NCBI GenBank assembly: GCA_038065755.1
Contig: JBBTQJ010000015.1
Span: 3,218 to 45,171 of the forward strand
Direction: 5' to 3'
Length of the DNA: 41,954 nucleotides
Source: Patescibacteria group bacterium
GTDB taxonomy: Bacteria; Patescibacteriota; Minisyncoccia; Minisyncoccales; Staskawiczbacteraceae
The translations under genes were made by a program, and so were the position numbers. How positions within the stretch are numbered: position 1 is the first letter of the stretch; each line of letters begins with the position of its first letter. The notes under the pieces are model-generated. The model was not told the origin of the DNA, did not search any database, and saw nothing but the letters and a program-made list of their open reading frames with translations. Below, piece after piece: positions 4,454-36,534 of the stretch.

Positions 4454-5394
4454 TATGCGATTTTTGTGGCGATGACTGTGATTTTTATTTCTCCTTTTTT
4501 TAAATTTTCGTCTTTTACAGCCCCAAAAATTATCTGGGCTTTTTGGTCAACATTTTTTGTGATAATGCCGGCGGCTTCTTGAATTTCGTTTAAAGTAATA
4601 TCATTTCCAAAAACGCTGAATAAAACCCCCTTTGCCCCTTTAATGGAAAAATCCAGCAAGGGAGAGTTTATGGCTATGTTGGCGGCTTCGGTTGCCCTGT
4701 TTTGGCCGCTGGCCCTGCCTACCCCGAAAAGTGTTCTGCCTGAATCCTTCATAATAGAAGCCACCGAAGCAAAATCAATATTTATAATGCCTGGCACCAA
4801 AATCAAATCTGTAATGCCCTGCGCAGCTTCTGCTAAAACCTGATCGCAAATCCAAAAGGCATTTGATACGGTTGTCTTTTCGTCTATTATTTTTAAGAGC
4901 TTGTCGTTTGATATAACCAACAAAGAATCAACTTTTCCGTTTAAATTTTCTATTGCCTCCTCTGCTATTTTTTTTCTTTCTTCGCCCTCAAAAGAAAAGG
5001 GAGTTGTTACCACAGCTATGGTTAAAATGCCAAGATTTTTTGAAAGCTCGGCAATAATCGGCGAAGCGCCGCTACCGGTTCCCCCACCCATTCCGCAGGT
5101 GACAAAAACCATATCTGCTCCTTTTATAATTTTTAATAATTCTTTTTTGCTTTCCTCTGCTGCTTTTTTTCCTAAATCTACATCCATTCCAGTGCCAAGC
5201 CCCCTGGTAATTTCTTCGCCGATTAAAACTTTGTTTTGAGTTTTACAAAAATGAAGAGCCTGATTGTCTGTGTTCACGGCAATTAATTCCACCTGCTGAA
5301 TATTTAATTTTGCCTGCCTGCGCAGGCAGGCCATTCGGGAAACGGTATTAGAACCCGAGCCCCCCACTCCAATAACTTTAATTTTGGGATCCAT
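4453..5394 (-). CDS. ftsZ: Cell division protein FtsZ (lacks C-terminal linker and peptide)
   Basis: IKVIGVGG, AVNTD, GMGGGTGSG tubulin signature, INIDFA; ends at ITVIATKIA. Confidence 0.97.
   Translation of the reverse strand: MDPKIKVIGVGGSGSNTVSRMACLRRQAKLNIQQVELIAVNTDNQALHFCKTQNKVLIGEEITRGLGTGMDVDLGKKAAEESKKELLKIIKGADMVFVTCGMGGGTGSGASPIIAELSKNLGILTIAVVTTPFSFEGEERKKIAEEAIENLNGKVDSLLVISNDKLLKIIDEKTTVSNAFWICDQVLAEAAQGITDLILVPGIINIDFASVASIMKDSGRTLFGVGRASGQNRATEAANIAINSPLLDFSIKGAKGVLFSVFGNDITLNEIQEAAGIITKNVDQKAQIIFGAVKDENLKKGEIKITVIATKIA
5312..5331. repeat. Perfect 20-bp palindrome in frame within ftsZ
   Basis: gcctgcctgc|gcaggcaggc, encoding (A)CLRRQA. Confidence 0.85.
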
Positions 5395-5399
5395 ATAAT

Positions 5400-6704
5400 T
5401 TATGGAAGGAAGTGCTTAAATATTTTTTTAATTTTTAACCACCACCCCCTTGCAAATCCCAGTATACCTTCTTCGTCGTCAAAATCAACCCCTCCCAAAG
5501 CCAGCCCGGCAACAGTGGCCAAAGAAGGATCTTCTTTCAGGCCGTAAATGCCTTTTGGAATCCCAATTTCACAAGGAAGCTTTAAGGCAATTTTTGTAAG
5601 CTCTTTTATTTTTGGCAAATTTGCTCCTCCGCCCGTTAAAACTATTCCGCCTGGCAATAATTCTTGTCTTCCGATTTTTTTCAATTCTTTTTGAATCAAA
5701 TCTAAAATTTCAGAAACCCTCGGTTCTATAATTCCCACCAGGCTTTTCTTTGTAAAAAAAATTGAAGATGATTCATCAAAAATTTCTATTTTATTTGAAA
5801 CGCCTTTTAGTCCGCGCTCTTTTTTTTCGCCGGCTGTTTTATTTTCTTGATTAACTTCCGGTTTTCCATTTATGGAATACTTAATTTGGCGGCGCAATAA
5901 ATTATCTGCTTTTAAAAGCAGGCATAAGCCATATTGCTTTTTTATGCTTTCTGCAATAGAAACATCTGTGCGCAGCCCAATGGCTATATCGTTGGTAATA
6001 TTGGCTGATCCAATTGGAAAAACAGCAAGATGTATTAATTCCCCTTCTTCAAAAACCGCCAAGCTTGTAGTATTTGCCCCAAAATCAATTAAAGCAACCC
6101 CCAGCTCTTTTTGCTGGGGAGTTAAAACAGCTTTTGCTGCGGCCAGGGGAGAGGGTATTACGTCATTAATTTGTATTTTTGAATTTAAAACAGCCTGAGT
6201 AAGGTTTGTAAAATACTGCTGGAAATAACAGAGCAAAAGCACTTTTGCTTCCAATCGTATGCCCATTAGATCTAACGGTTGTTTTATTCCTTTTTGATCA
6301 TCAATAATAAATTCTCTGGGAAAAACGTCCAGCACCTCTTCGTTATGGGGGATATTTATGGCTTTTGTGGCCTGTAAAACCCTTTCTATATCTTCTTTAG
6401 AAATTCTTTGGTCTGCCCTGGAAACAGAAATTATTCCGTCAGAAGGAACAACATAAATATGACTGCCTCCGATATTTACAAAAACAGAGGTGATTTTTCT
6501 ATTGCATTCTTTTTCAGCTTTTGCTATTGCTAGCTGGACATTTTTTGAAGTTTCTTCCACGTTAAAAACCGCTCCTTTTCTTAATCCAAAAGAAGGAACC
6601 TCAACATATGCCAAAACTTCCCATTCTTTTCCTTTTTTCTGGGCAACCAAACATTTGACAACGCTTGTCCCAATGTCTAAGCCTGCAACTATTTGACCAT
6701 TCAT
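5400..6704 (-). CDS. ftsA: Cell division protein FtsA
   Basis: GLDIGTS, LIDFGANTT, ITNDIAIGL, GIVLTGGGA; directly upstream of ftsZ. Confidence 0.96.
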   Translation of the reverse strand: MNGQIVAGLDIGTSVVKCLVAQKKGKEWEVLAYVEVPSFGLRKGAVFNVEETSKNVQLAIAKAEKECNRKITSVFVNIGGSHIYVVPSDGIISVSRADQRISKEDIERVLQATKAINIPHNEEVLDVFPREFIIDDQKGIKQPLDLMGIRLEAKVLLLCYFQQYFTNLTQAVLNSKIQINDVIPSPLAAAKAVLTPQQKELGVALIDFGANTTSLAVFEEGELIHLAVFPIGSANITNDIAIGLRTDVSIAESIKKQYGLCLLLKADNLLRRQIKYSINGKPEVNQENKTAGEKKERGLKGVSNKIEIFDESSSIFFTKKSLVGIIEPRVSEILDLIQKELKKIGRQELLPGGIVLTGGGANLPKIKELTKIALKLPCEIGIPKGIYGLKEDPSLATVAGLALGGVDFDDEEGILGFARGWWLKIKKIFKHFLP

Positions 6705-6726
6705 AAAAAATTTTTGGTTTTAAATT

Positions 6727-7155
6727 TCAAATTACCGACGATAAATAATGCTCTTCTTTTTTTTCCATTATTTCTGCTTCTTTTTTTGTTTTTTCGTGGT
6801 TATATTCTAAAAGATGCAAAATCCCGTGTGTTAAAACTTTTGTTAATTCTTCTTTAATGCTGGTTTTATATTTTTTAGCGTTTTCTTTTACAAATGCGGG
6901 GCAAATAATCACCTCGCCCAAATCATCTTTTAAAACTTGAAGCTTAAAACTTGAGACCCCGCCAAAAGACAAAACATCTGTCGCTTTATTTTTTTTGCGA
7001 TATTTTTTATTAAGCTTTCTTATCTCGCCAGTTGGAACAAAAACAACAGACAAGTTTTTCTTTTCTTTATTTTCGCCTTTTAATACTTTTTTTGCAACAC
7101 CTGTGAAAAACTTTTTATCCACAGCGAGGCCCGCAAGATTATTTATCTCAATCAT
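6727..7155 (-). CDS. ybeY: rRNA maturation endoribonuclease YbeY
   Basis: LNKKYR...ATDVLSF, LGEVIIC, HGILHLLEYNH. Confidence 0.95.
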   Translation of the reverse strand: MIEINNLAGLAVDKKFFTGVAKKVLKGENKEKKNLSVVFVPTGEIRKLNKKYRKKNKATDVLSFGGVSSFKLQVLKDDLGEVIICPAFVKENAKKYKTSIKEELTKVLTHGILHLLEYNHEKTKKEAEIMEKKEEHYLSSVI

Positions 7156-7206
7156 TTCCTTATTTTAACTTAATTTTACTTTTTTTCAAAATTCACGCGA
7201 TAAAAT

Positions 7207-7237
7207 AAAAATAGGCAAGAGCCCATTTCCTATTTTT
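7207..7237 (-). terminator. Terminator-like hairpin after the TA operon
   Basis: aaaaatagg-N13-cctattttt. Confidence 0.45.
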
Positions 7238-7255
7238 GTATCCAGATTTTAATTA

Positions 7256-7597
7256 TCAATTATTTAAAATTCTACTTTTCACAATAGTTATCAAGTCGTG
7301 CTCTGATTTATAAATTCCGTGGCGAGAAAATACTATTATTTTATAACAATCCATATTAATCATTTGAAAGACAACGCGGTATCCTTTTGATTTGCCTACA
7401 CTTTCTCTCATCGGAACAACCCTGCCCTTATAAATTTTACATTCGCCAAAACCGGGGAAAGCTTCTATGGCTGGTGTTTCTCTTAACCCCTTCAAACAAA
7501 AAAGACGCTCCCATGCCTCCAATGACTCGTGAGGTGCTGGAAAGCGTCGCAGGTCTTTTAAGTCTTTTTCAATGTCTTTATGCCGAATAGTCTTCAT
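7256..7597 (-). CDS. RelE/ParE-superfamily toxin (likely start MKTIRHK at 7597)
   Basis: IYKGRV...GKSKGYRVVF resembles the RelE/HigB GKSGGxRVIY region; starts 4 bp after the antitoxin stop. Confidence 0.7.
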   Translation of the reverse strand: MKTIRHKDIEKDLKDLRRFPAPHESLEAWERLFCLKGLRETPAIEAFPGFGECKIYKGRVVPMRESVGKSKGYRVVFQMINMDCYKIIVFSRHGIYKSEHDLITIVKSRILNN

Positions 7598-7601
7598 GCG
7601 C

Positions 7602-8099
7602 TTACATATTGGCCATTTCTCCGTATTTATTGCGATAATACGATAGATTATAGTCGATAACGCTATTTGGCTTTGTTGCAATCCATGGCGCTTCTCCATG
7701 GCTTGCATTTTTCATCTCGGCGCCCGAAAATTTTTCCCATTTATTGGCGATTTCTTCCATCATTAATAATTCCTCTTTTGAAAATAAATTTATATCAAAT
7801 TCTTTCAACGACTCAATGTGCTGTTGGTCATTATAACCAGAACCAATTTTTCTTTTAGTAATTTTAATATCTTTACCGTTCATCTCTTTTAATATTTTCT
7901 CTGCCATCCTTGGAATTGGGCCATTATCAAATCTTAAATATTCGTCTCCTGACACGGGCTTCCCGTATTTTTCAAAATAATCAAAATCCAAAAAGTATAA
8001 TAACTTCATTATTTTTAATTTTCCAAGCGTGCCATTTTTTATCTTATTTGCAAAAAACAAGATAAGATTTTTGTATTTTTTCTCGTTTATTTTAACCAT
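7602..8099 (-). CDS. Panacea-domain (DUF4065/SocA-like) antitoxin
   Basis: KLKIMKLLYFLDF, FDNGPIP, ASHGEAPW motifs; likely start MVKINEKK at 8099. Confidence 0.88.
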   Translation of the reverse strand: MVKINEKKYKNLILFFANKIKNGTLGKLKIMKLLYFLDFDYFEKYGKPVSGDEYLRFDNGPIPRMAEKILKEMNGKDIKITKRKIGSGYNDQQHIESLKEFDINLFSKEELLMMEEIANKWEKFSGAEMKNASHGEAPWIATKPNSVIDYNLSYYRNKYGEMANM

Positions 8100-8309
8100 A
8101 AATTGATTTATTCTATTATAACACAATCAAATAAAAAACCAAGATACTAAAAGATGGGTACTTCCCAAATCGTTTTTAATAATTTTTTGAATACTGCTGT
8201 TTTTATTTCTCAACTAATTTTTAATTTTATACAAAAAGGCTCCTAACCCCCCCTTTTTTTCTCGTACTTGTCAATCGTAACAAACTGCCTTAATTAAAAG
8301 TTTTGAAAT

Positions 8310-8454
8310 AAAAAAACCTCTCAGAAGATTTCTCTTCGTCGAGGCATACGAAGCATTAAAACTTCGCAGTTACGATCTGTCACAACATAATCTTGCGCTT
8401 ACTTGTTGAACTAACTTTTCGCATTAAATGTCGCCACAAGATGATAATGTTATA
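8310..8454 (-). ncRNA. Candidate structured small RNA or leader
   Basis: Upstream TTGAAA-N18-TAGAAT (8490..8461), three predicted helices including gaaga-GAAA-tcttc, final hairpin followed by a T tract. Confidence 0.4.
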
Positions 8455-8539
8455 GAAAAAATTCTAAATTCATAGAATAAAACATTTCAATTTTGGAAAA
8501 ATTTTCCGAAAGAGCTAAATAACGAAAATAATCCACTTC

Positions 8540-8571
8540 AACCAAAAAGCGGGCTTGCCCGCTTTTTGGTT
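8540..8571. terminator. Intrinsic terminator after yqeY
   Basis: aaccaaaaagcgggc-tt-gcccgctttttggtt, perfect 15-bp arms. Confidence 0.75.
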
Positions 8572-8575
8572 TTTT

Positions 8576-9073
8576 CTATTTAGACAATAATTCTTTTACG
8601 ATTTTTGAAATTTCACCGGAGTCCGCTTTGCCTTTTACTTTTGGCGCCAAGTCTGCCATTATTCTGCCCATATCTTTTATTTCTTTGGCTCCTGTTTTGT
8701 TTATTGATTCTTCAATTATTTTTTTCAATTCTTCTGTTGAAATTTGTTTTGGCAAATATTTTTTTAAAATGGCGACTTCTTTTTTTTCTTTGTCTGCCAG
8801 TTCCTGCCTATTGCCTTTTTCATATAATAAAATTGCGTCTTTTCTTTTTTTTATTTCAGAAGATATAACATCAATTGTTTCTTCATCTGTTAAATAGGAC
8901 TCTTTTATTAAGTCTTCTTCTTTCAACTCCGGCTTTAACTTTGAAATTTTATATCTTTTGTCTTTTTCTTTTGTAATAATAAAGGCCAAAACCATGCGCA
9001 AAACACCGGCAGTAAAATTATCTCCGCCTTTTAGCGCTTCTGTCGCGTCTTTTTGAATTTGTTGTTTTAACAT
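8576..9073 (-). CDS. GatB/YqeY domain protein (likely start MLKQQIQ at 9073)
   Basis: EIKKRKDAILLYEKGNRQELADKE, KYLPKQ, KDMGRIM, KGKADSG; conserved position downstream of rpsU. Confidence 0.92.
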   Translation of the reverse strand: MLKQQIQKDATEALKGGDNFTAGVLRMVLAFIITKEKDKRYKISKLKPELKEEDLIKESYLTDEETIDVISSEIKKRKDAILLYEKGNRQELADKEKKEVAILKKYLPKQISTEELKKIIEESINKTGAKEIKDMGRIMADLAPKVKGKADSGEISKIVKELLSK

Positions 9074-9087
9074 TATTATTTCGGCTT

Positions 9088-9151
9088 CCCCGTTAGAAAC
9101 CTTGCGCAAAAAGAATTTTAATCTATTTTTTATAATTGGTTTCTAACGGGG
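9088..9151. mobile_element. 64-bp miniature inverted-repeat element with 14-bp TIRs and CTT flanking duplication
   Basis: ctt|ccccgttagaaacc...ggtttctaacgggg|ctt; supplies the last codons and TAG of rpsU. Confidence 0.7.
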
Positions 9152-9358
9152 CTTTGCCATTTTTTCTGCCTGCTTTCTTTCTTTTCTTATTTTTTCCCTT
9201 CTTAAAACCGACCTCTTTTTTGACAAAGCTGATTTTTTTCTTTTATGAAATTGTTTGCTTCTTACTTCAAGCAAAACACCGGACTGCCTTACTACTTTGG
9301 TAAATCTGTGAACCAGGCTTTGAGAGGTTTCCCTGTCTTTTTTTCTTACTTCTAACAT
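9143..9358 (-). CDS. rpsU: 30S ribosomal protein bS21
   Basis: 71 aa, basic, EVRKKDRET..SLVHRFTK.V..SGVL.E.R; rpsU-yqeY synteny. Confidence 0.85.
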   Translation of the reverse strand: MLEVRKKDRETSQSLVHRFTKVVRQSGVLLEVRSKQFHKRKKSALSKKRSVLRREKIRKERKQAEKMAKPR

Positions 9359-9364
9359 AAAAAA

Positions 9365-10648
9365 TTATTTTTTAATTTTGTTTTTCATTTCTTTTACGAC
9401 CTTGTCTAATTTAATTTCTTTTTGGGCTCCTGTATCCATATCCCTTAAAGTAACAAAATCTTCCAGCGCTTCTTTCTGCCCAAAAATTAAAACATATTTT
9501 ATTCCCAATTTATTGGCAACTCTTAGCTGCGCCTTTAAAGAATCTTTTGAAAAAGATTCTGCAACCGGAATCTTGGCTTCTCTGAATTCTTCAAAAAGCT
9601 TTAAGCTTTTTCTTTTTGCCAGCTGCCCTAATTGGGCTAAAAATATTTTTGCTTCTTTTTGGTTCTGGGATAATTTTACTTCTCTGGTTTTCATTAAATT
9701 CACAATTCTTTCTGTTCCTCCCGCAACTCCGCAGGCAGGAGTGTCTCTGCCTCCTAAAATTTTTACCAAGCCGTCGTATCTTCCCCCCCCAATTAATGTT
9801 CCTTGGTTTTTTCCCTCTTCGCTGTTTTCTGAAATTTCAAAAACGGTCTTTGTATAATAATCCAGCCCTCTGACCAAGCACGAATTTAAAGTGTATGGCA
9901 GTTGCAGTTCGTCTAAAAATTCCAAAACCTGTTTAAAGTGCAAGTGACAGCTCTCGCATAAATGGTCAATTATCTGAGGAGCCCCTGCTTTTATTCTTTG
10001 GCATTTTTCTTCTTTGCAGTCTAAAATTCTCAAAGAATTTTCTTTCAACCTTCTCTGGCAATCTGAACATAAAGAAGATTTTCTTGACCTGAAGTAGCTT
10101 GTTAATATTTTTTTAAAATAGGGCCTGCATTCTGTATCTCCAATGCTGTTTACCTCTATCATCAAATTTTTAAAACCTAAATCTTTCAAAATATCATAAC
10201 TCATCTGAATAACTTGTCCGTCTATTGAAGGGTTCTTTTCTCCTAGGGCTTCAAATCCAAATTGATAAAATTGTCTGTATCTTCCGGCTTGGGGCCTTTC
10301 ATGCCTAAAACAAGGCCCATAATACCACAACTTTACAGGCTGTGGAAGGTTGTGCATTCCGTGTTCTATATAGCTTCTTGCTATTGACGAGGTATATTCC
10401 GGCCTTAAAGCCACCAAATCTCCGCCCTTTGTCCTAAATGTGTACATCTCTTTTTCAATAATATCTGTTCCTGTCCCCGTGCCTTTTAAAAAAACTTCGG
10501 CCTGCTCTAAAATTGGCGTGTCTATTTTTTGAAACCCATAATAACCGGTAATGTTTTCAACCGATTTTTGAACTTTTTGAAAATAGGGCTGATCTTCGGG
10601 CAAAATGTCGTGCATTCCTGTCAAGCTTTGAATTTTTAATTTATTCAT
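9365..10648 (-). CDS. hisS: Histidine--tRNA ligase
   Basis: GMHDILP, KEMYTF, LRPEYT, FRHERPQAGRYRQFYQ, LVRGLDYY, GGGRYDGL. Confidence 0.98.
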   Translation of the reverse strand: MNKLKIQSLTGMHDILPEDQPYFQKVQKSVENITGYYGFQKIDTPILEQAEVFLKGTGTGTDIIEKEMYTFRTKGGDLVALRPEYTSSIARSYIEHGMHNLPQPVKLWYYGPCFRHERPQAGRYRQFYQFGFEALGEKNPSIDGQVIQMSYDILKDLGFKNLMIEVNSIGDTECRPYFKKILTSYFRSRKSSLCSDCQRRLKENSLRILDCKEEKCQRIKAGAPQIIDHLCESCHLHFKQVLEFLDELQLPYTLNSCLVRGLDYYTKTVFEISENSEEGKNQGTLIGGGRYDGLVKILGGRDTPACGVAGGTERIVNLMKTREVKLSQNQKEAKIFLAQLGQLAKRKSLKLFEEFREAKIPVAESFSKDSLKAQLRVANKLGIKYVLIFGQKEALEDFVTLRDMDTGAQKEIKLDKVVKEMKNKIKK

Positions 10649-10660: not shown

Positions 10661-11290
10661 TTAATAAATTGGCGTTTCAATTTGAGATAACGTTGTTATG
10701 GGAAAAATTCTTAAATAGGCTTTGCCGATAATATATTCTTTTGAAAGAATTCCCCATCTTCTTGAATCAAAAGAATATTCTCTATTGTCTCCTAAAACAA
10801 AATATTCATCTGGCCCCAAAACAATATTTATATCACCTTCGGTTTTTAGGTCGTCTGGAAGATATTCTTCGTTCAGCGCAAAACTGTTATTTTTGTAAAT
10901 TGTTATTTTACCTTCTTTAATTTCTACGGTTTCACCGGGCAGGCCTATAATTCTTTTAATAAACCGCTGGGCTGTATCTTTTGGATATTTAAAAACAATT
11001 ATATTTCCCCTTTGTGGCTCTGTAAACCTGTAAGATATTTCGTCAACAATTAAATAATCTCCAGATTTCAAATTGGGCACCATTGATTCTCCCCTTACAA
11101 TAAAAGGCTGAAATAAAAAATAACGTATGGGTAAAACTATTACCAAGGCAATAACAACTATCTGGATAATTTCCCAAACAAACGGCAAAAAACTTTTAAT
11201 GCCTCTTTTACCTATTTTTTTTTCTTCAACTCCTGCCTGTGGGGACAGGCCATTATTTATTTTTGCTTCTTTGTTATTGTCTTCTTCCAT
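10661..11290 (-). CDS. lepB: Signal peptidase I
   Basis: GESMVPNL (Ser), FIKRIIGLPGE (Lys), FVLGDNR..SFDSR.WG. Confidence 0.96.
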   Translation of the reverse strand: MEEDNNKEAKINNGLSPQAGVEEKKIGKRGIKSFLPFVWEIIQIVVIALVIVLPIRYFLFQPFIVRGESMVPNLKSGDYLIVDEISYRFTEPQRGNIIVFKYPKDTAQRFIKRIIGLPGETVEIKEGKITIYKNNSFALNEEYLPDDLKTEGDINIVLGPDEYFVLGDNREYSFDSRRWGILSKEYIIGKAYLRIFPITTLSQIETPIY

Positions 11291-12414: not shown

Positions 12415-12999
12415 ATGATTATAATAATCGGACTGGGGAATCCCGGCGAAAAATTTAAAAACACCAGGCATAATGCCGGCTTTATGGTTTTAGATAGTTT
12501 TGCAAAAGAAAATGATTTTCCGGAATTTAAAATACAAAAAAAATATAACGCCTTAGTTTCAGAGAATATTATAAACGAACAAAAAATTTTGTTGGCAAAG
12601 CCTCAGACTTTTATGAATGAATCGGGAAAAACCGCTAAAAAAATTTTAAAAAATAATAAATCAGAGACAGACAACCTTATCGTAGTTCACGATGATATTG
12701 ATTTGCCTGTTGGAAAAATAAAAATAGTTAAAGAAAGGGGCTCAGCCGGCCACAAAGGAGTAGAATCAATAATCAAAAACATCGGCAATAACGGATTAAT
12801 AAGATTTCGCCTAGGCATAAATCAAAAACAGTACCACCGACCCATCGGTGGTACTAAAAAAGCAAAAGAGGTTGTGCTTGAAAAATTTTCAAAAGACGAA
12901 CAAAAAATAATAGACCAAGCAATCCAAAAAACCGCCAGCGCTCTCAATTTTATAATAAAAAACGGCCTAGAAAAAGCCATGAATGAGTACAATAAATAA
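12415..12999 (+). CDS. pth: Peptidyl-tRNA hydrolase
   Basis: GLGNPG..F.NTRHNAGF, KPQTFMNESG, VVHDDIDL, SAGHKG. Confidence 0.97.
   Translation: MIIIIGLGNPGEKFKNTRHNAGFMVLDSFAKENDFPEFKIQKKYNALVSENIINEQKILLAKPQTFMNESGKTAKKILKNNKSETDNLIVVHDDIDLPVGKIKIVKERGSAGHKGVESIIKNIGNNGLIRFRLGINQKQYHRPIGGTKKAKEVVLEKFSKDEQKIIDQAIQKTASALNFIIKNGLEKAMNEYNK
12830..12855. repeat. 26-bp hairpin (11-bp perfect stem) within pth
   Basis: agtaccaccga-ccca-tcggtggtact, encoding QYHRPIGGT. Confidence 0.8.
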
Positions 13000-23263: not shown

Positions 23264-23878
23264 TCAATATCTTAATATTTTTTCTCTTCTTCTTGTTAAA
23301 TCAATGATTTTTGAGGGTTTTGATTTTAGCAAGTTGCCTCCGTCAATTATTAGGTCTGGTTTATTTTTTTGTTTTTTAAACAACGCAATAATTTCTTTTA
23401 CACTTTTCATTTCAGGCATACCCGAGATATTTACTGATGTTTGCGATAAGGGTTTGTTTATTTTTTTTAATAAATCCTGAATGAATTTGTGTTTTGGAAT
23501 TCTTATAGCGATTGTCTTTTTGTTCATGACTAATAGGGTCAGACGAGGGTCAGACCCTGACCTGACCCCGAGTACAAAAGTAAATTTACCGGGCCAGTGT
23601 TTTTTTAAAATTTTTTCTTGCCTTTTATCAATTTCTGCAATTTCTTTTGCTGTTTTTATATCTTTTACAAAAATAGCCAAAGGTTTTGTCTTTGGCCTTT
23701 TTTTTATTTTAAAAATTTTTTCAACGGCTTTTTTATTGCTTGCGTCCGCTAAAAATCCATAAACCGTATCAGTTGGACAAGTTATCACCCCTCCCTTCTT
23801 AATTGTTTCCGTTGCAATCTTTAATAAATTTTTATCTTTAATATTGCTAACTTTAAATTTTAAATTTTCATTTTGCAT
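23264..23878 (-). CDS. tsaC: L-threonylcarbamoyladenylate synthase (Sua5/YrdC/TsaC)
   Basis: PTDTVYG, KKRP..KPL, WPGKFT, AIRIP, TSVNISG. Confidence 0.93.
   Translation of the reverse strand: MQNENLKFKVSNIKDKNLLKIATETIKKGGVITCPTDTVYGFLADASNKKAVEKIFKIKKRPKTKPLAIFVKDIKTAKEIAEIDKRQEKILKKHWPGKFTFVLGVRSGSDPRLTLLVMNKKTIAIRIPKHKFIQDLLKKINKPLSQTSVNISGMPEMKSVKEIIALFKKQKNKPDLIIDGGNLLKSKPSKIIDLTRRREKILRY
23536..23568. repeat. Nested GGGTCAG/CTGACCC palindrome in frame within tsaC
   Basis: gggtcag-acg-agggtc-a-gaccct-gac-ctgaccc, encoding GVRSGSDPRLTL. Confidence 0.75.
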
Positions 23879-23879: not shown

Positions 23880-24659
23880 TTACATTTTAATTTTTAAATT
23901 TTTGTTATAACCTCCGTTTTTTAAAAAATTAGAAAATTTTAAAACATCTCCCGGGTTGCCAAAGTCAATCCAGCAGTCTTTTATTATTTTAATTTTAACT
24001 TTTTTATTTTTTGCCAAAAGAGAAATGGCGTCTGTAATTTCATATTCTCCGCGCGGAGATTTTTTAATTTTAGATATTTTTTTAAAAATATCTGGCGTAA
24101 ACTTATATAATCCGGCGTTAATTAGGTTGCTTATATATTCTTTTGGTTTTTCTATTATTTCTTTTAATAATCCGTTGTTAGGAACAAGCACCCCGTATTT
24201 TTCGGGATTCTGATGTAAAAGTCCGGCGGCATAGTTATAGTTATCTCTAATATTCATTGCCTTTAAGTCTCTTATTGAATAAAGGTTGTCGCCGTAAAGA
24301 TATATAAAATTTGATTTGCCAATTATATTTTTAACGCATTTTATAGGGCAGGCAGTGCCATATTCTTTTTCTTTGGGGCCTAAAAATTCATACTGGCTGA
24401 CAAAGCTTATTTTGCGCTTCTTGCCCGCCTCTGCAGGCAGATTTTTGAGGCAGCAGCTATAATCATCTAAAAATTCTTTCATTAAGTCCTCTTTATATCC
24501 CACCACCAAAATAATCTCTTTATATCCGGCGGCCAATAAATTATCTAAAACATACGCTAAAAACGGCCTGTCTTTAACATTAATAAGGTGCTTTGGCTTA
24601 TTATTAGACAAATGAAGCATACGAGTCCCTTGCCCCGCCGCCGCTATTACAACCTTCAT
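23880..24659 (-). CDS. Sugar-phosphate nucleotidyltransferase (RmlA/GlmU-like)
   Basis: AAGQGTRM...KPKHL, YGDNL, YGVL, EKP, INAGLY, SPRGEYEITD. Confidence 0.9.
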   Translation of the reverse strand: MKVVIAAAGQGTRMLHLSNNKPKHLINVKDRPFLAYVLDNLLAAGYKEIILVVGYKEDLMKEFLDDYSCCLKNLPAEAGKKRKISFVSQYEFLGPKEKEYGTACPIKCVKNIIGKSNFIYLYGDNLYSIRDLKAMNIRDNYNYAAGLLHQNPEKYGVLVPNNGLLKEIIEKPKEYISNLINAGLYKFTPDIFKKISKIKKSPRGEYEITDAISLLAKNKKVKIKIIKDCWIDFGNPGDVLKFSNFLKNGGYNKNLKIKM

Positions 24660-27827: not shown

Positions 27828-29510
27828 TTATTGATCATGCTTTTTTGATTTTTGTCTTCTTTCCAAAAGCGCGCAGATTCTTTTGCAAATTATTACTGAA
27901 ACTTCGTCTTTTGTTAAAAAATCTTTAATTGTATCTTCCAGCTCTTTAATATTTATCTGGTCAAGAATTTTTATATATTTTACTCCGCAAGCCCTAACTA
28001 TTTCTTCTATTTTTAATTCTTCTGTTGGCTCTCCCATAGCATTTTGGCCCATTCCTGGATTTTGCTGGTGCCCTGTCATGGCGGTGATTCTATTGTCTAA
28101 TACAATCAGTAGGGGATTTGATTTATTAAAAACAGCGTTGATTAATGCGTATATGCCCGAATGAAAAAAGGTGCCGTCTCCTATAATAGATATTACTTTT
28201 TGATTTGCAACTTGCCCGGAACCGCGCTGAAGAGATTTTACCACGCCGTGGGATATGCCAAGTCCGGCCCCCATGGAAAAAATATAATCTTGTATATTAT
28301 GTGGAAAAAGGCCGGCTATCATATTGCATCCAATATCTCCGCCAAAAATTGTTCCTTCCGGCGCAACTTTTTTTATTATAGGAAAAACATACAAATAAGG
28401 GCACCCCTCGCATAATCTGGCGGTTCTGCGCGGAATTTTTAATCCTAAATTTTTTCCGCCAAAGGCGGACCCGCCTCGGGCGAGAATTTTTAAATTTTTA
28501 ATCTCGGCAATTGCAAAAATAATTTTTTCAGTATTTAATTCCCCTATTTCCGGCAAAACGCTTTTACCAAAAATCTGTGTTTTTAAATTATCGTCTTTGG
28601 CAATAATTTTTATTTCTTTTTCTAAATAAGGGTCTGTTTCTTCTATGACTAAAATTTGTTTTTTATTTTTAATAAAATCTGCAATTTTTTTACTTGGCAA
28701 AGGATAAAAAAAACCCAGCTTTAAAACAGGAATATCTATTCCTAATTCTTCAACGGCTTCAATTGTATGCAAATAAGCAACCCCCGATGCCACTATTCCA
28801 AGATTGTGGGAGACCCGATGTCCCACAATTTTATTTATAGAGGACTTTTCGGCAAAAACGCGTATTTTTTCTGTTTTTTCCAAAAGTTCTTTTTTCATTT
28901 CTAAAACCCGCGGGGGCATTGTGCAAAATTGATGAGGATTTTTTATAAAATTGGGCGTTGAATGTTGGGTGTTGGGCGTTGAGCTTACTTCTACTATTGC
29001 CCTCTGATGATTAACTCTGGTTGTGGTTCTCAAAATTACGGGAATATTAAATTTTTCTGAAATTTCAAACCCTAATTTTGTAAAGTCGTAGCATTCTTGA
29101 GGATCAGAGGGTTCTAATACCGGCACATGAAATAAATAAGCATAACCCCTTGAATCCTGTTCTGATTGGGCAGAGCTCCAGCACGAAGGGTCGTCGGCCA
29201 CAACAATAACCATACCTGCTTTTGTTCCGGTATAAGCCAAGGGAAATAAGCTGTCAGAACAGACGTTTATTCCAAAACTTTTCATATTTACCAAAGACTT
29301 CAGTCCGGAAAAACTGGCTCCAATTGCAGCTTCTAACGCCACTTTTTCATTGGTTGACCATTCTGCATATATGCCATGAGTTTTAGCAATTCTTCCAAAC
29401 TCATCTCCTATTTCAGCAGACGGACAGCCCGGATATCCAGAAACAAAATCAACACCCGCTTCCAGCGCTCCTCTGACTATAGCCTCATTTCCCAATAAAA
29501 CTTTCTTCAT
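27828..29510 (-). CDS. iorA: Indolepyruvate:ferredoxin oxidoreductase alpha subunit (no C-terminal ferredoxin domain)
   Basis: LLGNEAIVRG, GYPGCPS, NEKVALE, DDPS..S.QSEQDSR, LCEGCP, GDIGC, IGDGTFFHSG, LDNRITAMTGHQ. Confidence 0.93.
   Translation of the reverse strand: MKKVLLGNEAIVRGALEAGVDFVSGYPGCPSAEIGDEFGRIAKTHGIYAEWSTNEKVALEAAIGASFSGLKSLVNMKSFGINVCSDSLFPLAYTGTKAGMVIVVADDPSCWSSAQSEQDSRGYAYLFHVPVLEPSDPQECYDFTKLGFEISEKFNIPVILRTTTRVNHQRAIVEVSSTPNTQHSTPNFIKNPHQFCTMPPRVLEMKKELLEKTEKIRVFAEKSSINKIVGHRVSHNLGIVASGVAYLHTIEAVEELGIDIPVLKLGFFYPLPSKKIADFIKNKKQILVIEETDPYLEKEIKIIAKDDNLKTQIFGKSVLPEIGELNTEKIIFAIAEIKNLKILARGGSAFGGKNLGLKIPRRTARLCEGCPYLYVFPIIKKVAPEGTIFGGDIGCNMIAGLFPHNIQDYIFSMGAGLGISHGVVKSLQRGSGQVANQKVISIIGDGTFFHSGIYALINAVFNKSNPLLIVLDNRITAMTGHQQNPGMGQNAMGEPTEELKIEEIVRACGVKYIKILDQINIKELEDTIKDFLTKDEVSVIICKRICALLERRQKSKKHDQ
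28455..28483. repeat. Double hairpin in frame within iorA
   Basis: tccgcc-aaa-ggcgga-cc-cgcc-tcg-ggcg-a, encoding LARGGSAFGG. Confidence 0.75.
28803..28829. repeat. Hairpin in frame within iorA
   Basis: attgtggga-gacccgatg-tcccacaat, encoding IVGHRVSHN. Confidence 0.7.
28951..28986. repeat. Heptamer tandem repeat in iorA
   Basis: ttgggcg ttgaatg ttgggtg ttgggcg ttgagct. Confidence 0.7.
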
Positions 29511-34236: not shown

Positions 34237-34257
34237 ATATAAGTATTAAGTATATTG

Positions 34258-34470: not shown

Positions 34471-34530
34471 GGTAAACTCCTTCATAGCTGGAACTGAAAG
34501 GTCTCGCTCTCTCAAACCGTCATGGCTTGA

Positions 34531-34577: not shown

Positions 34578-34578
34578 A

Positions 34579-36009
34579 TTAAATTCTAGGAAAAATAGCT
34601 GTCTGGTTTTTGGATTCAATTGCTTGTTTAATTTTTTCTGAAGTTGCGGGCAAAAATGGCAATAATAAATCTGCAACATTCTGCAAAACAAAAAGAGAAT
34701 CAAAAACAACTTGTTTGGCGTTTTCTTTTCCCTCCCACGGTCTGCCGTCGTTTATATATTTGTCGCAAAATCCTATCAGCTCCCAAATTGATTTTAAAGC
34801 TTCATTGAATTTAAAATCTTTTAAATGTTTTTCGCATTCTTTTTTTGTTTTGCCTGCGGATTTTTTAATTTTTAAAGAGGGTTTTCCTTTTGAAACATTT
34901 AACTTCTTGGCCAAGGCAACTGTTCTGGAAACAAGATTGCCTATTCCTCCCGCTAAATCAGAATTATATCTTTGTTCAAATTTTTCATAAGTAAAATCGC
35001 CGTCCTCTGTTGAAGGAATTTCTCTTAAAAGATAATAACGCACCGCATCTGCGCCATATTTTTTTACCAGTTCAAACGGATCAATAACATTGCCTAATGA
35101 TTTTGACATTTTTTGTCCGCCGACATTGATGAATCCGTGAACAAAAATCAACTTGGGAAGCTCCAACCCGGCAGACAAAAGCATTGCCGGCCAAAAAATA
35201 CAATGAAATTTTATAATATCTTTGCCTATGCAATGCGCATTTGCCGGCCAATATTTTTTAAATTTTTTATCGTTGTCTGCGTATCCAATAGCTGATATAT
35301 AGTTTGGAAGAGCGTCCTGCCAAACATAAAAAACCTGGCTGTTGTCTCCCGGAACAGGCCACCCCCAGTATTTTTCTTTTGCTCTTGAAAAGCTGACGTC
35401 TTCCATACCCGCCTTAATCATTCCTAATATCTCATTTTTTTTTGATTCTGGAATAATTTTTATCTTGTCTTTTTCAACAATTTTTCGGATTTTAGGAAGA
35501 TATTTTGAAAGCTTAAAAAAATAATTTTCCTCTTCTATTTTTTCAACCTCTTTTTGATGAATGACGCATTTATTATCAACCAGTTCTTTTTGAGTTTTAA
35601 AAGCTTCGCATCCTTGGCAATAAAGACCCTTATATTTCTTTTTATAAATATCGCCTTCTTTCTTGTATTTTTCCCATAATTTATAAACTGCCCTCATGTG
35701 CCTTATTTTATCGGTTGTTCTAATAAAATCATCGTTTGATAAATTTAACAGTGTTTTTAAGTCCCTGAATTTTTGTGAAATTTCGTCTGCATAAATATTC
35801 GGATCTTTTCCGGCTGTTTCAGCTGCCTTTAATGTTTTTTGGCCGTGTTCGTCTGTGCCGGTTAAAAAAAATACGTCTTCGCCCAAAACCCTGTGATGGC
35901 GCGCCAAAACATCTACCTGAATTAATTCTAAAACATGGCCTATGTGTGGAGGCGCATTTGTATAAGGAATACTGGTTGTAATATAGAATTTTTTCTTTTT
36001 ATCTGTCAT
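34579..36009 (-). CDS. metG: Methionine--tRNA ligase (short form, likely start MTDKKKKFYIT)
   Basis: PYTN..PHIGH, TGTDEHGQK, YVWQDAL.NY, GKDIIKFH, KMSKS. Confidence 0.97.
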   Translation of the reverse strand: MTDKKKKFYITTSIPYTNAPPHIGHVLELIQVDVLARHHRVLGEDVFFLTGTDEHGQKTLKAAETAGKDPNIYADEISQKFRDLKTLLNLSNDDFIRTTDKIRHMRAVYKLWEKYKKEGDIYKKKYKGLYCQGCEAFKTQKELVDNKCVIHQKEVEKIEEENYFFKLSKYLPKIRKIVEKDKIKIIPESKKNEILGMIKAGMEDVSFSRAKEKYWGWPVPGDNSQVFYVWQDALPNYISAIGYADNDKKFKKYWPANAHCIGKDIIKFHCIFWPAMLLSAGLELPKLIFVHGFINVGGQKMSKSLGNVIDPFELVKKYGADAVRYYLLREIPSTEDGDFTYEKFEQRYNSDLAGGIGNLVSRTVALAKKLNVSKGKPSLKIKKSAGKTKKECEKHLKDFKFNEALKSIWELIGFCDKYINDGRPWEGKENAKQVVFDSLFVLQNVADLLLPFLPATSEKIKQAIESKNQTAIFPRI

Positions 36010-36051
36010 AATATAATTATTAAATTTTATCATAAATTTAAACAATTTTCC

Positions 36052-36534
36052 ATGATAATAATTCCTCATCTTGTTTTTGGAGCAGCTATCGGATCTTTAA
36101 TTAAAAATCCCTTTTTGGCTGTTGCTGTGGCATTTCTAGGCCATTATTTTTTAGACCTGATTCCCCATAATGAATACTCTATTGAAAATATCAAAAAAAA
36201 GCAATGGCATAAGGCTTTTCCTGATATTTTAAAGGCTTTGGCGGATTTTTTAATTGGAATTTTTCTTATTTTTATATTTTCTGGGAACCAGCCCATTGTT
36301 TATGTATGCGCTTTTTTTGCTGTTTTAAGCGACGGACTGAACCTGTTGGTTTTATTTTATCCAAATAAAATTTTAGAAGCGCACAGTAATTTTCACCACG
36401 AAAAAATACATTTTTTAAGCAATAAAAACCCCGCAGACATAGTTGGACGGGGCGGAAAAAAAATTTCTTTTTTTTTAAGAACATCTACCCAGATAACAAC
36501 AGTTATTATATCTATTGTTTTGATGGCTAAATAA
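36052..36534 (+). CDS. Hypothetical membrane protein with His/Asp cluster (possible metal-dependent hydrolase)
   Basis: PHLVFG, GHYFLDLIPH, SD, HSNFHH motifs in hydrophobic helices; start at ATG 36052 avoids overlap with metG. Confidence 0.7.
   Translation: MIIIPHLVFGAAIGSLIKNPFLAVAVAFLGHYFLDLIPHNEYSIENIKKKQWHKAFPDILKALADFLIGIFLIFIFSGNQPIVYVCAFFAVLSDGLNLLVLFYPNKILEAHSNFHHEKIHFLSNKNPADIVGRGGKKISFFLRTSTQITTVIISIVLMAK

What the first reader, a model, noticed from the sequence alone, without database searches (positions are those of the whole stretch)
5312..36452. Window-wide set of tiny GC-rich hairpins sitting in frame inside proteins
Seen: at least eight hairpins inside otherwise AT-rich ORFs, none breaking the frame: ftsZ 5312..5331, lepB 11232..11250, pth 12830..12855, tsaC 23536..23568, NTP-transferase 24423..24440, iorA 28455..28483 and 28803..28829, membrane ORF 36429..36452. 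Each encodes an odd peptide (CLRRQA, LSPQAG, YHRPIGGT, VRSGSDPRLT, LPAEAG, ARGGSAFGG, VGHRVSH, PADIVGRG) in apparent loops or termini. Known: Rickettsia palindromic elements insert in frame but are about 100-150 bp; REPs spread by RAYT transposases are normally extragenic. Inference: several families of 18-35 bp elements are being added to essential genes, a potentially undescribed source of protein loop variation.
Basis: partly seen in the sequence, partly recalled or inferred. Interest (0 to 1): 0.8.

Follow-up and report, generated by a model that had tools for sequence, protein, structure and literature searches.

The report
Tiny GC hairpin repeats inside genes
Short GC-rich palindromic DNA repeats of 15 to 33 bases sit in frame inside essential genes of this ultra-small groundwater bacterium, adding five to ten amino acids to protein loops, much like the selfish palindromes of Rickettsia but far smaller.

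Summary
All eight GC-rich stretches exist at the stated coordinates, in frame, and encode the stated peptides. Five fold far better than shuffles, two are weak, and one (36429-36452) is not a significant hairpin.

They belong to several repeat families. The ftsZ element is an exact 18-nt palindrome, CCTGCCTGCGCAGGCAGG. G000 holds 19 copies (up to 3 mismatches), 18 of them in ORFs, and the same-genus genome G001 holds none. 16 of the 18 coding copies fall in a gap of the G001 ortholog, 14 of these gaps being six codons long.

ftsZ and the NTP-transferase show clean 18-nt insertions. pth, iorA site 1 and lepB lie in hypervariable loops or tails. tsaC, iorA site 2 and the membrane ORF show little or no length change against G001.

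The same 18-mer occurs in more than 119 stretches of other genomes, many labelled as other phyla. It recurs at one position of tRNA-Gln fragments beside tiny GIY-YIG nuclease genes. No RAYT flanks it, but a RAYT in G000 is flanked by another hairpin family.

In-frame intragenic REPs and RPEs are already published. I found no account of them for CPR bacteria or at this size. This scan has noted the same phenomenon before on other genomes. How the elements move is inferred, not shown.

The parts
5312..5331 (.). Family A element in ftsZ (gene 4453-5394, minus strand). The exact 18-nt palindrome CCTGCCTGCGCAGGCAGG lies at 5313-5330, extended to 20 nt by the flanking G and C. It encodes CLRRQA, residues 23-28.
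   Evidence: 0 of 200 shuffles fold as well. It is an 18-nt insertion against G001, and 27 of 29 orthologs have nothing at this site. G019 has a 21-nt variant at the same nucleotide position, and G007 has a related palindrome elsewhere in ftsZ. In the AlphaFold2 model the insert lies at the end of helix H11-26 and the following loop; residue block 21-30 has the lowest pLDDT (64, against a mean of 87).
11232..11250 (.). Family-A-like variant (CCTGCCTG-TGGGGA-CAGGC) in the N-terminal tail of the S26 signal peptidase gene lepB (10661-11290, minus strand). It encodes LSPQAG.
   Evidence: The hairpin is weak (13 of 200 shuffles). In a MAFFT alignment of 18 sequences, G000 alone has about 11 extra residues here that include the hairpin. 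The tail is low-complexity, so the indel is not cleanly delimited.
12830..12855 (.). Family D 26-nt palindrome AGTACCACCGACCCATCGGTGGTACT in pth (12415-12999, plus strand). It encodes (Q)YHRPIGGT.
   Evidence: 0 of 200 shuffles. It is single-copy in G000, but five near-identical copies lie elsewhere in G001, whose own pth lacks it. G000 is 5 aa longer than G001 here. 7 of 24 orthologs, G000 included, carry different strong hairpins in this same loop.
23536..23568 (.). Family C nested double hairpin (GGGTCAGAC repeated) in tsaC (Sua5/YrdC family; 23264-23878, minus strand). It encodes VRSGSDPRLT.
   Evidence: 0 of 200 shuffles. A second copy lies in an unrelated gene at G000:C20:7478-7523 and encodes VRPGSDPRLT. 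The length difference against G001 is only 2 aa, but G001 and five further orthologs (7 of 24 in all) carry unrelated GC hairpins in the same hypervariable loop.
24423..24440 (.). Decayed family A copy in the NTP-transferase gene (23880-24659, minus strand). It encodes (N)LPAEAG.
   Evidence: The hairpin is now weak (23 of 200 shuffles). G001 shows a clean six-codon gap. G024, from another genus, has a perfect family A 18-mer at the same codon (NLPAQAG), and none of the other 20 aligned orthologs has one.
28455..28483 (.). Family B double hairpin (TCCGCCAAAGGCGGA plus CCCGCCTCGGGCGA, 30 nt with flanks) in the iorA-like TPP enzyme gene (27828-29510, minus strand). It encodes ARGGSAFGG.
   Evidence: 5 of 200 shuffles. 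G000 holds 4 exact TCCGCC-N3-GGCGGA copies, all read as S-A-x-G-G. Clean 15-nt and 30-nt indels of this family between TTT and AAA occur in other genes. At this loop G000 is 7 aa longer than the shortest orthologs, and G016 carries a family-A-like hairpin in the same loop.
28803..28829 (.). 27-nt hairpin ATTGTGGGA-N9-TCCCACAAT in the same iorA-like gene. It encodes (I)VGHRVSH(N).
   Evidence: 0 of 200 shuffles. There is no length difference against G001. Homologous hairpins occur at the same site in G011 and G009, and G001 keeps the loop motif ACCCGACC without the stem. I read this as an old insertion that is decaying in some lineages.
36429..36452 (.). Weak 5-bp stem (CCCCG/CGGGG, 14-nt loop) near the 3' end of a conserved small membrane-protein ORF (real start near 36050; ends 36534, plus strand). 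It encodes PADIVGRG.
   Evidence: It does not fold better than chance (34 of 200 shuffles). G001 aligns through it with a 1-aa difference. No family members were found. It lies about 100 nt downstream of the convergent AI-2E transporter gene and is followed by TTTTT on the minus strand, but the terminator scan did not list it. It is probably not part of the phenomenon.

Best explanation
The hairpins are copies of several families of ultra-short (15-33 nt), GC-rich, palindromic repeat elements of the REP/RPE kind. They have been inserted into coding DNA, some recently and some long ago.

The best-defined family, A, is an exact 18-nt palindrome. It is inserted without target duplication, usually between a purine and a pyrimidine. 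It is a multiple of three long, has no stop codon in any of the six frames, and reads the same on both strands. Every insertion therefore adds one of only three hexapeptides and never breaks a gene. Selection then keeps copies in tolerant places (loops, N-terminal tails) and in the mildest reading phase, LPAQAG.

Shown here: multi-copy identity, presence/absence against close relatives, the 3n length, the phase bias, the patchy lineage distribution, and the occurrence of the same 18-mer in distant phyla.

Inferred only: how the elements move. My best guess is trans-mobilisation of a single-stranded DNA hairpin by hairpin-specific nucleases or transposases. For family A the candidate is a small single-domain GIY-YIG nuclease cassette that lives in tRNA-Gln genes, in an Ssn/SRM-like arrangement. 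For the CCCCGATGTC-CGA-GACATCGGGG family the candidate is a RAYT-type Y1 transposase.
For: **Copy number and location of family A**
- G000 holds 19 copies (up to 3 mismatches), and 18 of the 19 lie in crude ORFs that cover 91% of the genome.
- 8 of the copies are perfect.

**Comparison with the same-genus genome G001**
- 543 ORFs matched, with median identity 72%.
- G000 has 28 six-codon insertions against 8 in G001. 13 of the 28 are at least 65% GC, against 0 of the 8.
- Of the 18 coding family A copies, 14 coincide with six-codon gaps, 2 lie inside larger gaps and 2 show no gap.

**Distribution in 41 related genomes**
- Copies per genome: G000 18, G001 0, G024 24, G016 15, G020 12, G007 11.
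- 26 of the 41 genomes have none. The reversed-pattern control found 0 in all 41.

**Exactness of the insertion**
- Intact and interrupted tRNA-Gln 5' ends in the same locus differ by exactly the 18-mer, with nothing duplicated or lost (L104 and L115; G029).

**Occurrence in other genomes**
- No flank is conserved except R at -1 (135 of 164 half-sites) and Y at +1.

**Reading phase**
- G000: 14 LPAQAG, 3 CLRRQ, 1 PACAGR.
- Long frames of loci below 50% GC elsewhere: 28, 2 and 9 in the same order.
- R^Y sites are not enriched in the favoured phase: 0.21, against 0.27 and 0.145. This points to selection on a translated peptide.

**Other families**
- Family B gives clean 15-nt and 30-nt indels between TTT and AAA.

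**Candidate enzymes**
- A G000 Y1_Tnp gene (C37:17677-18420) has the 25-nt hairpin CGCCCCGATGTCCGACATCGGGGCG just upstream of it and again inside it. Two further copies exist, one of them in frame in another gene.
- Family A sits beside single-domain GIY-YIG ORFs (Pfam PF01541, E 1.7e-14 and 6e-15) at tRNA-Gln in L104, L115 and G029.
- 3 of the 80 loci found through the 18-mer hold such an ORF within about 500 nt.
Against: - No transposition event, enzyme activity or transcript was observed.
- G000 shows no family A copy next to any nuclease or transposase gene. Its only GIY-YIG gene (C36:7359-7613) is bracketed by a different 13-nt inverted repeat. Its tRNA-Gln(UUG) is not in the assembly.
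- G001 has two cassette-type GIY-YIG genes, one beside tRNA-Gln, yet no family A copy.
- The presence of Y1_Tnp does not track family A: 11 of 15 positive genomes have it against 14 of 26 negative ones, and G024 with 24 copies has none.
- Same-site occupancy in different genera with absence in the congener (ftsZ in G000 and G019; NTP-transferase in G000 and G024) fits hot-spot insertion, precise loss or allele exchange equally well.
- Many hairpins in the pth and tsaC loops are unique sequences, which a copy-and-insert model does not by itself explain.
- G000 and G001 are only about 72% identical in protein, so 'recent' is relative.
Confidence: 0.72

Rival explanations
1. The hairpins are made locally rather than copied in. 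Template switching or fold-back synthesis at permissive sites creates inverted duplications. Alternatively, one ancient hairpin per site is kept by selection for a DNA or RNA structure while its sequence drifts through compensatory changes.
For: In the pth loop 7 of 24 orthologs, and in the tsaC loop 7 of 24, carry strong hairpins of mostly different sequence at the same place. The pth hairpins of G000, G020, G024 and G007 share outer stems (AGTxCC...GGxACT) with differing inner stems. The iorA-2 hairpin is shared by three genera with changed loops. Several hairpins have variable stems around a constant centre, GTCCGAC. Many strong hairpins are singletons in G000.
Against: Families A, B, C, D and the RAYT-linked family occur as identical or near-identical sequences in unrelated genes. 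Family A occurs letter for letter in genomes labelled as other phyla. The G000 pth hairpin is identical to copies elsewhere in G001, whose own pth lacks it. Local duplication cannot produce the same 18-mer at 19 unrelated sites.
Confidence: 0.1
2. The repeats serve the host as recognition motifs, for example as sites for a single-strand nuclease that gates natural transformation as NTS/SsnA does in Neisseria, or as DNA-uptake-type signals. On this view they are kept by selection and are not selfish.
For: Hairpin-gene-hairpin layouts with a small GIY-YIG gene resemble NTS-ssnA-NTS (PMC11893778 sections read). Some copies in other genomes carry CGTCATT-type flanks like the NTS (L142 and L149; L294).
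Against: Copy numbers are low and very patchy: 18 against 0 within one genus, and 26 of 41 relatives have none. 18 of 19 copies are inside genes, whereas the NTS are 2% intragenic (PMC11893778, Discussion). The CPR copies have no conserved oriented flank. The copies decay.
Confidence: 0.1
3. The inserts are removed or skipped before the protein is made, by RNA-level excision or translational bypassing, so they do not alter the proteins.
For: Nothing direct. An 18-nt element free of stop codons preserves the frame whether or not it is translated, so the in-frame property alone does not prove translation.
Against: The strong bias towards one reading phase (14 of 18 in G000; 28 of 39 elsewhere) is not explained by target-site availability. 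It is expected only if the peptide is made and selected. The inserts sit at loops and tails.
Confidence: 0.04
4. The hairpins are sequencing or assembly artefacts.
For: All the genomes are metagenome assemblies, and palindromes can arise from chimeric reads.
Against: The same elements occur in independent assemblies from many studies and record submitters. Diverged copies lie at orthologous sites. The inserts are always multiples of three inside conserved genes. Four DNA runs from two samples hold 68-100% of the sampled words of the ftsZ region, though three are marked as possible sources of the assembly.
Confidence: 0.01

Closest known systems
Intragenic REPs, including the small Rickettsia conorii elements RPE-4 and RPE-6 (GTAG- and CGTC-tagged REP superfamilies; Di Nocera et al. 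2013, PMC3733652; passages seen)
   Same: Both are short GC-rich palindromic repeats, multi-copy, found in frame inside known housekeeping genes, sometimes as dimers, and sometimes twice in one gene. The CGTC type has no dedicated transposase flanked by it. A UvrD-like helicase in L121 carries LPAQAG before its DDDQ motif, which echoes the published bias towards repair genes.
   Different: Published REPs are 20-40 bp with a GTAG or CGTC tag and an unpaired tail, and they are mostly intergenic. Family A is a tag-less, perfect 18-nt palindrome, and 18 of 19 copies are intragenic. Family B is 15 nt. The hosts are CPR/Patescibacteria-type genomes. The exact unit is shared across phyla.
Rickettsia palindromic elements, RPE-1 type (about 150 bp; summarised in PMC10969869, passage seen)
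   Same: Both are selfish palindromic DNA inserted in frame into unrelated metabolic and housekeeping genes, adding a conserved peptide.
   Different: RPEs are about ten times longer and encode a folded peptide segment. They are described from Rickettsia only. Sequence relatedness was not tested here.
Ssn/SRM system: single-domain GIY-YIG ssDNA nucleases and their hairpin repeats, such as NTS of Neisseria (Chenal et al. 2025, PMC11893778; sections 6, 7, 10 and 12 read)
   Same: Both pair a 20-50-nt hairpin repeat with a roughly 85-aa single-domain GIY-YIG gene, in a hairpin-gene-hairpin layout (G029). Both have many dispersed orphan copies and are widespread across phyla.
   Different: The NTS have a conserved, oriented upstream flank and are 2% intragenic. 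The family A copies here lack any flank and are nearly all intragenic. The nuclease's membership of cd10448 could not be tested; its nearest solved chain is a UPF0213 protein (1zg2, E 0.0011). In G000 itself the nuclease and the hairpin are not adjacent.
REP-RAYT 'REPtrons' (IS200/IS605-related Y1 transposases flanked by their REPs)
   Same: One G000 Y1_Tnp gene has its 25-nt hairpin upstream of it and inside it, with further dispersed copies, one of them in frame in another gene. Seamless insertion without target duplication is the hallmark of this transposase family (this point is recalled, not tested here).
   Different: Family A and the other window hairpins are not adjacent to any of the three Y1_Tnp genes of G000, and Y1_Tnp presence does not track family A in relatives. 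No GTAG tag is present.
Mobile GC clusters of yeast mitochondrial DNA
   Same: Both are short GC-rich hairpin modules spreading in very AT-rich, gene-dense genomes, occasionally in frame within genes.
   Different: The GC clusters are eukaryotic organelle elements of about 30-50 bp with different sequences. No comparison was made here.

Membership tests
REP / REPtron (RAYT-mobilised repetitive extragenic palindromes) | Imperfect palindrome of 20-40 bp carrying a conserved GTAG (or CGTC) tetranucleotide tag at one end | tested here: not met
   Family A is a perfect 18-nt palindrome. Across 82 copies from 80 loci, no flank position is conserved except R at -1 and Y at +1. A few copies in other genomes have CGTCATT nearby (L142 and L149; L294).
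REP / REPtron (RAYT-mobilised repetitive extragenic palindromes) | A RAYT (Y1 transposase) gene flanked by the same repeat | tested here: not met
   Not met for family A and the other window hairpins: the three Y1_Tnp genes of G000 have other hairpins or none nearby, and in G029 a Y1 gene has a family-A-like palindrome 600 nt upstream but a different hairpin at its end. Met for the separate CCCCGATGTC-CGA-GACATCGGGG family at G000:C37.
REP / REPtron (RAYT-mobilised repetitive extragenic palindromes) | Predominantly extragenic location | tested here: not met
   18 of 19 family A copies lie in ORFs. About 17.3 would be expected if insertion ignored coding status, since 91% of the genome is in crude ORFs.
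Rickettsia palindromic elements (RPE) | Palindromic repeat inserted in frame in unrelated protein genes, absent from orthologs | tested here: met
Rickettsia palindromic elements (RPE) | Unit length about 100-150 bp, encoding a conserved peptide of about 30-50 aa | tested here: not met
   The units here are 15, 18, 26, 30 and 33 nt and encode 5-11 aa.
Ssn / SRM (GIY-YIG ssDNA nuclease with cognate hairpin repeats) | Hairpin repeat flanking a small single-domain GIY-YIG gene | tested here: inconclusive
   Met in other genomes: L104 and L115, and G029 with copies on both sides. Pfam GIY-YIG gave E 1.7e-14 and 6e-15. Not met in G000, whose only GIY-YIG gene has other flanks. G001 has the cassette but no family A.
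Ssn / SRM (GIY-YIG ssDNA nuclease with cognate hairpin repeats) | Nuclease belongs to CDD family cd10448 and cuts ssDNA next to the hairpin | not testable with these tools
   No CDD library is on hand. NCBIfam gave only a sub-threshold group-I-intron-endonuclease hit. The nearest PDB chain is 1zg2, a UPF0213 protein, at E 0.0011.
Ssn / SRM (GIY-YIG ssDNA nuclease with cognate hairpin repeats) | Conserved, oriented sequence upstream of the hairpin (CGTCATT... in NTS) | tested here: not met
   the flanks of the 82 copies are not conserved.
MITE (miniature inverted-repeat transposable element) | Terminal inverted repeats with a target-site duplication on insertion | tested here: not met
   Interrupted and intact tRNA-Gln ends differ by exactly 18 nt with no duplication. 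The codon-level indels are consistent with this.
Intrinsic terminator (considered for site 36429-36452 only) | GC-rich stem with a short loop, followed directly by a T-run downstream of a gene | tested here: inconclusive
   A 5-bp stem, 14-nt loop and TTTTT on the minus strand lie about 100 nt after the AI-2E transporter stop codon. The terminator scan did not list it, and it does not fold better than shuffles.

The most novel reading that the evidence does not exclude
The exact 18-nt palindrome CCTGCCTGCGCAGGCAGG may be one of the smallest mobile DNA units known. On this reading it is a gene-less hairpin, shared letter for letter by CPR bacteria and by genomes labelled as several other phyla and phages. 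It is launched from a homing-type mini GIY-YIG nuclease cassette that lives in tRNA-Gln genes. It is shaped by element-level selection (3n length, no stops in six frames, the same peptide on both strands) so that it can colonise the roughly 90%-coding genomes of ultra-small bacteria. It would thereby continually seed six-residue loop insertions, and reversible losses, in essential proteins such as FtsZ.
Probability: 0.25. Interest if true: 0.85.

Novelty: new variant of a known kind. Interest (0 to 1): 0.62.

Why it matters
If these elements are mobile, they show how selfish DNA can persist in genomes with almost no non-coding space: by being harmless to reading frames. They would also be a steady source of small indels in the loops of essential proteins, a class of variation usually put down to replication slippage.

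The same-site hits in different genera, and the hot-spot loops in pth and tsaC, give a natural map of insertion-tolerant positions in conserved enzymes.

The link to tiny GIY-YIG nucleases at tRNA-Gln, if confirmed, would connect the newly described Ssn/SRM nuclease-hairpin systems, the orphan CGTC-type REPs and the Rickettsia RPEs into one picture. It would also point to new sequence-specific ssDNA enzymes.

On the practical side, annotation and alignment pipelines for CPR genomes should expect these inserts.

Tried and rejected
- **The repeat finder:** I used my own hairpin scan instead.
- **Expression:** no RNA holder was listed for window 4453-9400.
- **Read laying:** Filled versus empty alleles in the population could therefore not be examined.
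- **RAYT as mobiliser of family A:** no adjacency in G000, no co-occurrence in 41 relatives, and nothing convincing at the G029, G016 or G017 Y1 genes.
- **A gene-bearing 'full-length' form of family A (half-sites separated by a gene) in G000:** none found. The isolated 8-mers are mostly ordinary coding sequence or variants.
- **Empty copies of the inverted repeat that brackets the G000 GIY-YIG gene:** none found.
- **Clustering all GC hairpins of G000 and G001 by shared 10-mers:** 914 of 1053 hairpins collapsed into one cluster. Only the small clusters were informative: family D, the GTCCGAC-centred hairpins, and a few pairs.
- **Placing the cassette nuclease in the Ssn family:** NCBIfam and PDB sequence searches were inconclusive.
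- **N-terminal enrichment of family A:** 6 of 18 copies lie within the first 30 codons, against 2.1 expected (P about 0.013). This rests on crude ORF starts, so I give it little weight.
- **Literature:**
  - CPR with palindromic and in-frame terms: 3 papers, none relevant.
  - Five-term search on GC-rich palindromic elements: 0 papers.
  - A 16-nt core of family A, matched anywhere in the text: 0 papers.
  - Patescibacteria with palindromic repeats and hairpin terms: 15 of 438 listed, none on this.
  - 'Rickettsia palindromic' with CPR names: 10 of 639 listed, and none of the 10 held the RPE term.
  - REP, intragenic and in-frame terms: this returned the two papers cited.
  - Supplementary tables of PMC3733652 and PMC11893778, which list intragenic REPs and SRM-bearing genomes, were not seen. 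They could hold CPR or similar cases.
- **The search of earlier findings by sequence:** I used a word look-up instead.

Full report
**Setting**

The window is G000:C15:3218-45171 of a 682-kb, 38-contig, 34.8% GC genome. Its size and its named relatives in public records are those of a CPR/Patescibacteria bacterium. DNA runs holding the region are groundwater metagenomes. The window is densely coding and 29-39% GC per kilobase.

**Observation**

- Each lies inside an ORF in frame and encodes the quoted peptide.
  - FtsZ: TIGR00065, 357 bits.
  - S26 signal peptidase, Pth, a Sua5/YrdC-family TsaC, an NTP-transferase and a TPP/POR_N (iorA-like) enzyme.
  - The 'membrane ORF' has no Pfam family, but G001 conserves it from an internal Met.
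- Folded as single-stranded DNA against 200 shuffles, ftsZ, pth, tsaC and iorA-2 are unmatched (0 of 200). iorA-1 is moderate (5). lepB (13), the NTP-transferase (23) and the membrane ORF (34) are weak.
- Perfect GC-rich stems of at least 7 bp occur 9 times in the window, against 0-4 (mean 1.2) in 20 shuffles.

**The ftsZ element is a repeat family (A)**

The 18-nt palindrome CCTGCCTGCGCAGGCAGG occurs 19 times in G000 at up to 3 mismatches, 8 of them perfect. 18 of the 19 copies are in crude ORFs that cover 91% of the genome, so coding DNA is not avoided.

I fetched the whole same-genus genome G001 (799 kb) and aligned 543 G000 ORFs to it; median identity was 72%.

- G000 has 28 six-codon insertions against 8 in G001. 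13 of the 28 are at least 65% GC, against 0 of the 8.
- Codon-level alignments show clean 18-nt indels with perfectly aligned flanks. An example is GGA GAG GGC [18 nt] AAG CCC against GGA GAA GGC AAG CCC.
- Of the 18 coding copies, 14 coincide with a six-codon gap in G001 and 2 lie inside larger gaps.
- The other 2 show no gap. At one of these, G001 keeps a half-site remnant nearby.
- G001 has no copy at up to 2 mismatches.

**Distribution**

- Among 41 related genomes, copy numbers are very patchy: G024 24, G000 18, G016 15, G020 12, G007 11. 26 genomes have none. A reversed-pattern control found none anywhere.
- By my count of the 80 listed titles, about 46 carry CPR-type names and 28 carry names of other phyla (Bacteroidota, Gammaproteobacteria, Terriglobia, WOR-3, Ignavibacteria-like and others). 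6 say only 'bacterium'.
- By my own arithmetic, a random 18-mer would be expected roughly ten times in 596 Gb at even base composition, and more often in GC-rich genomes. Some hits in GC-rich records, such as Streptomyces, may therefore be chance. Hits in loci of 32-45% GC are not.
- 25 viral contigs also hold the 18-mer, most of them GC-rich.

**Anatomy of insertion**

- Flanks of 82 copies are unconserved except a purine before the element (135 of 164 half-sites) and a pyrimidine after it.
- In three loci an intact tRNA-Gln 5' end and an interrupted copy lie side by side and differ by exactly the 18-mer. Nothing is duplicated or lost. The unit is therefore intrinsically 18 nt and leaves no target duplication.
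- It contains no stop codon in any frame and is its own reverse complement. It can therefore add only LPAQAG, CLRRQ(x) or PACAGR.
- The phases are strongly skewed: 14, 3 and 1 in G000, and 28, 2 and 9 in long frames of AT-rich loci elsewhere.
- Purine-pyrimidine junctions are no commoner in the favoured phase. I read the skew as selection on a translated peptide.
- In the AlphaFold2 model of FtsZ (mean pLDDT 87), the insert sits at the end of helix 11-26 and the next loop. This is the least confident block of the model, with pLDDT 64.

**The other seven sites**

- **NTP-transferase:** a decayed family A copy and a clean six-codon gap in G001. G024, of another genus, has a perfect copy at the same codon.
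- **lepB:** a family-A-like variant inside an 11-residue extra stretch of a low-complexity N-terminal tail.
- **pth:** a 26-nt palindrome (family D), single in G000. Five near-identical copies lie elsewhere in G001, whose own pth lacks it. 7 of 24 orthologs carry strong but mostly different hairpins in this loop.
- **tsaC:** a nested double hairpin with a second copy in an unrelated G000 gene. It is only 2 aa longer than G001. G001 and five other orthologs have unrelated GC hairpins in the same loop, 7 of 24 in all.
- **iorA-1:** a family B double hairpin. Family B (TCCGCC-N3-GGCGGA) has 4 exact copies, all read as S-A-x-G-G, and gives clean 15-nt and 30-nt indels between TTT and AAA in other genes. 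G016 has a family-A-like hairpin in the same loop.
- **iorA-2:** no length change. Homologous hairpins occur in G011 and G009, and G001 keeps a stem-less remnant. I read this as an old insertion.
- **Membrane ORF:** a 1-aa difference, a weak stem and no family. It is probably unrelated.

**Who moves them?**

- G000 has three Y1_Tnp genes. One, at C37:17677-18420, has the 25-nt hairpin CGCCCCGATGTCCGACATCGGGGCG just upstream of it and inside it. Two more copies lie elsewhere, one in frame in a gene.
- None of the window's hairpins is next to a Y1 gene. Y1_Tnp presence does not follow family A in relatives: 11 of 15 genomes with copies have it, against 14 of 26 without copies, and G024 with 24 copies has none.
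- 4 of the 80 loci found through the 18-mer, plus G029 (same order as G000), have the element at one fixed position of a tRNA-Gln 5' fragment (G^T in the D-arm).
  - These lie next to an 84-86-aa single-domain GIY-YIG ORF (L104, L115, G029; Pfam E 1.7e-14 and 6e-15), or next to an HNH-like ORF (L114; HNH is my reading of the motifs, with no Pfam hit).
  - In G029 a copy lies on each side of the cassette of nuclease gene and intact tRNA-Gln gene.
- A profile of the cassette nuclease finds it within about 500 nt of the palindrome in 3 of the 80 loci, whereas G000 and G001 have only one or two such genes per genome.
- This hairpin-gene-hairpin layout is that of the Ssn/NTS system (PMC11893778). 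I could not test membership of that family.
- In G000 the only GIY-YIG gene has other flanks, and tRNA-Gln(UUG) is missing from the assembly.
- G001 has the cassette beside tRNA-Gln but no family A.
- The mechanism therefore remains an inference.

**Unresolved**

- Same-nucleotide occupancy in different genera with absence in the congener (ftsZ in G000 and G019, the latter a 21-nt variant; NTP-transferase in G000 and G024) may mean hot-spot insertion, precise excision or allele exchange.
- The many unique hairpins in the pth and tsaC loops, and hairpins with variable stems around a constant centre, keep alive a rival in which some hairpins are made or maintained locally.

**Comparison with what is known**

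- In-frame palindromic DNA in genes is known from Rickettsia RPEs of about 150 bp (PMC10969869).
- It is also known from intragenic GTAG/CGTC REPs, including the small RPE-4 and RPE-6 (PMC3733652).
- The present elements differ in four ways. They are tag-less perfect palindromes of 15-18 nt. They are mostly intragenic. They occur in CPR genomes. For family A, the copies are identical across phyla.
- My searches found no published account of this. I did not see the supplementary tables of the two key papers.
- This scan has reported the same kind of element, and the tRNA-Gln GIY-YIG cassette, on other genomes before. I re-derived the points I use from my own calls.

**Verdict**

This is a real, well-supported feature: a new, extreme variant of the REP/RPE kind. 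The mobilisation mechanism is open and testable.

Noticed in passing
G000:C36:7359-7613 (outside the window): The only GIY-YIG gene of G000 (84 aa, Pfam E 5.5e-8) sits exactly between a perfect 13-nt inverted repeat, ACCCCGCCCTCTA ... TAGAGGGCGGGGT, as if it lay in the loop of a hairpin. No empty copy of that hairpin exists in G000.
   Followed up: partly
G001, L054:2108-2562: tRNA-Gln(UUG) is followed directly by GC hairpins (one with arms GGCAGGCGCA / TGTGCCTGCC, reminiscent of family A half-sites) and a small GIY-YIG gene. Yet G001 has no family A 18-mer.
   Followed up: partly
pth loop (window 12800-12870) and tsaC loop (window 23530-23590) across L224-L271: Two loops of conserved enzymes are hot spots. 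7 of 24 orthologs in each case carry strong GC hairpins of mostly different sequence at the same position.
   Followed up: partly
G000:C1:28688, C19:20950, C19:27112, C2:13328, C15:23367 (= window 20150-20176), C37:17605: A set of hairpins has different outer stems but a constant centre, GTC-CGA-C (GGTCCGACC, CGTCCGACG, TGTCCGACA). The RAYT-linked hairpin is one of them. This may reflect nested insertion into older hairpins or a loop-specific enzyme.
   Followed up: no
L282:5704-6377 and L283:5599-6272 (viral contigs): Two family A copies with inverted about-11-nt flanks (CGCG-pal-TGTTTCGCGGG / CCCGCGAAACA-pal-CGC) bracket a 638-nt coding stretch in a GC-rich phage contig.
   Followed up: no
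L142:1669, L149:5945, L294:5636: In some non-CPR or GC-rich records the 18-mer is embedded in CGTCATT...AATGACG-type arms like the NTS/CGTC-REP tag. This hints that family A is the core of an SRM-type hairpin.
   Followed up: no
L121:1378-4314: A UvrD/PcrA-like helicase (my reading of its motifs), in a MAG labelled Gammaproteobacteria, carries LPAQAG just before its VVGDDDQ motif. This echoes the published bias of intragenic REPs towards repair genes (PMC3733652).
   Followed up: no
G000:C19:24113-25009: A second, distant FtsZ-like gene (36% identity, open frame 511 aa) is present in G000 and in nearly all relatives searched.
   Followed up: no
   Followed up: no
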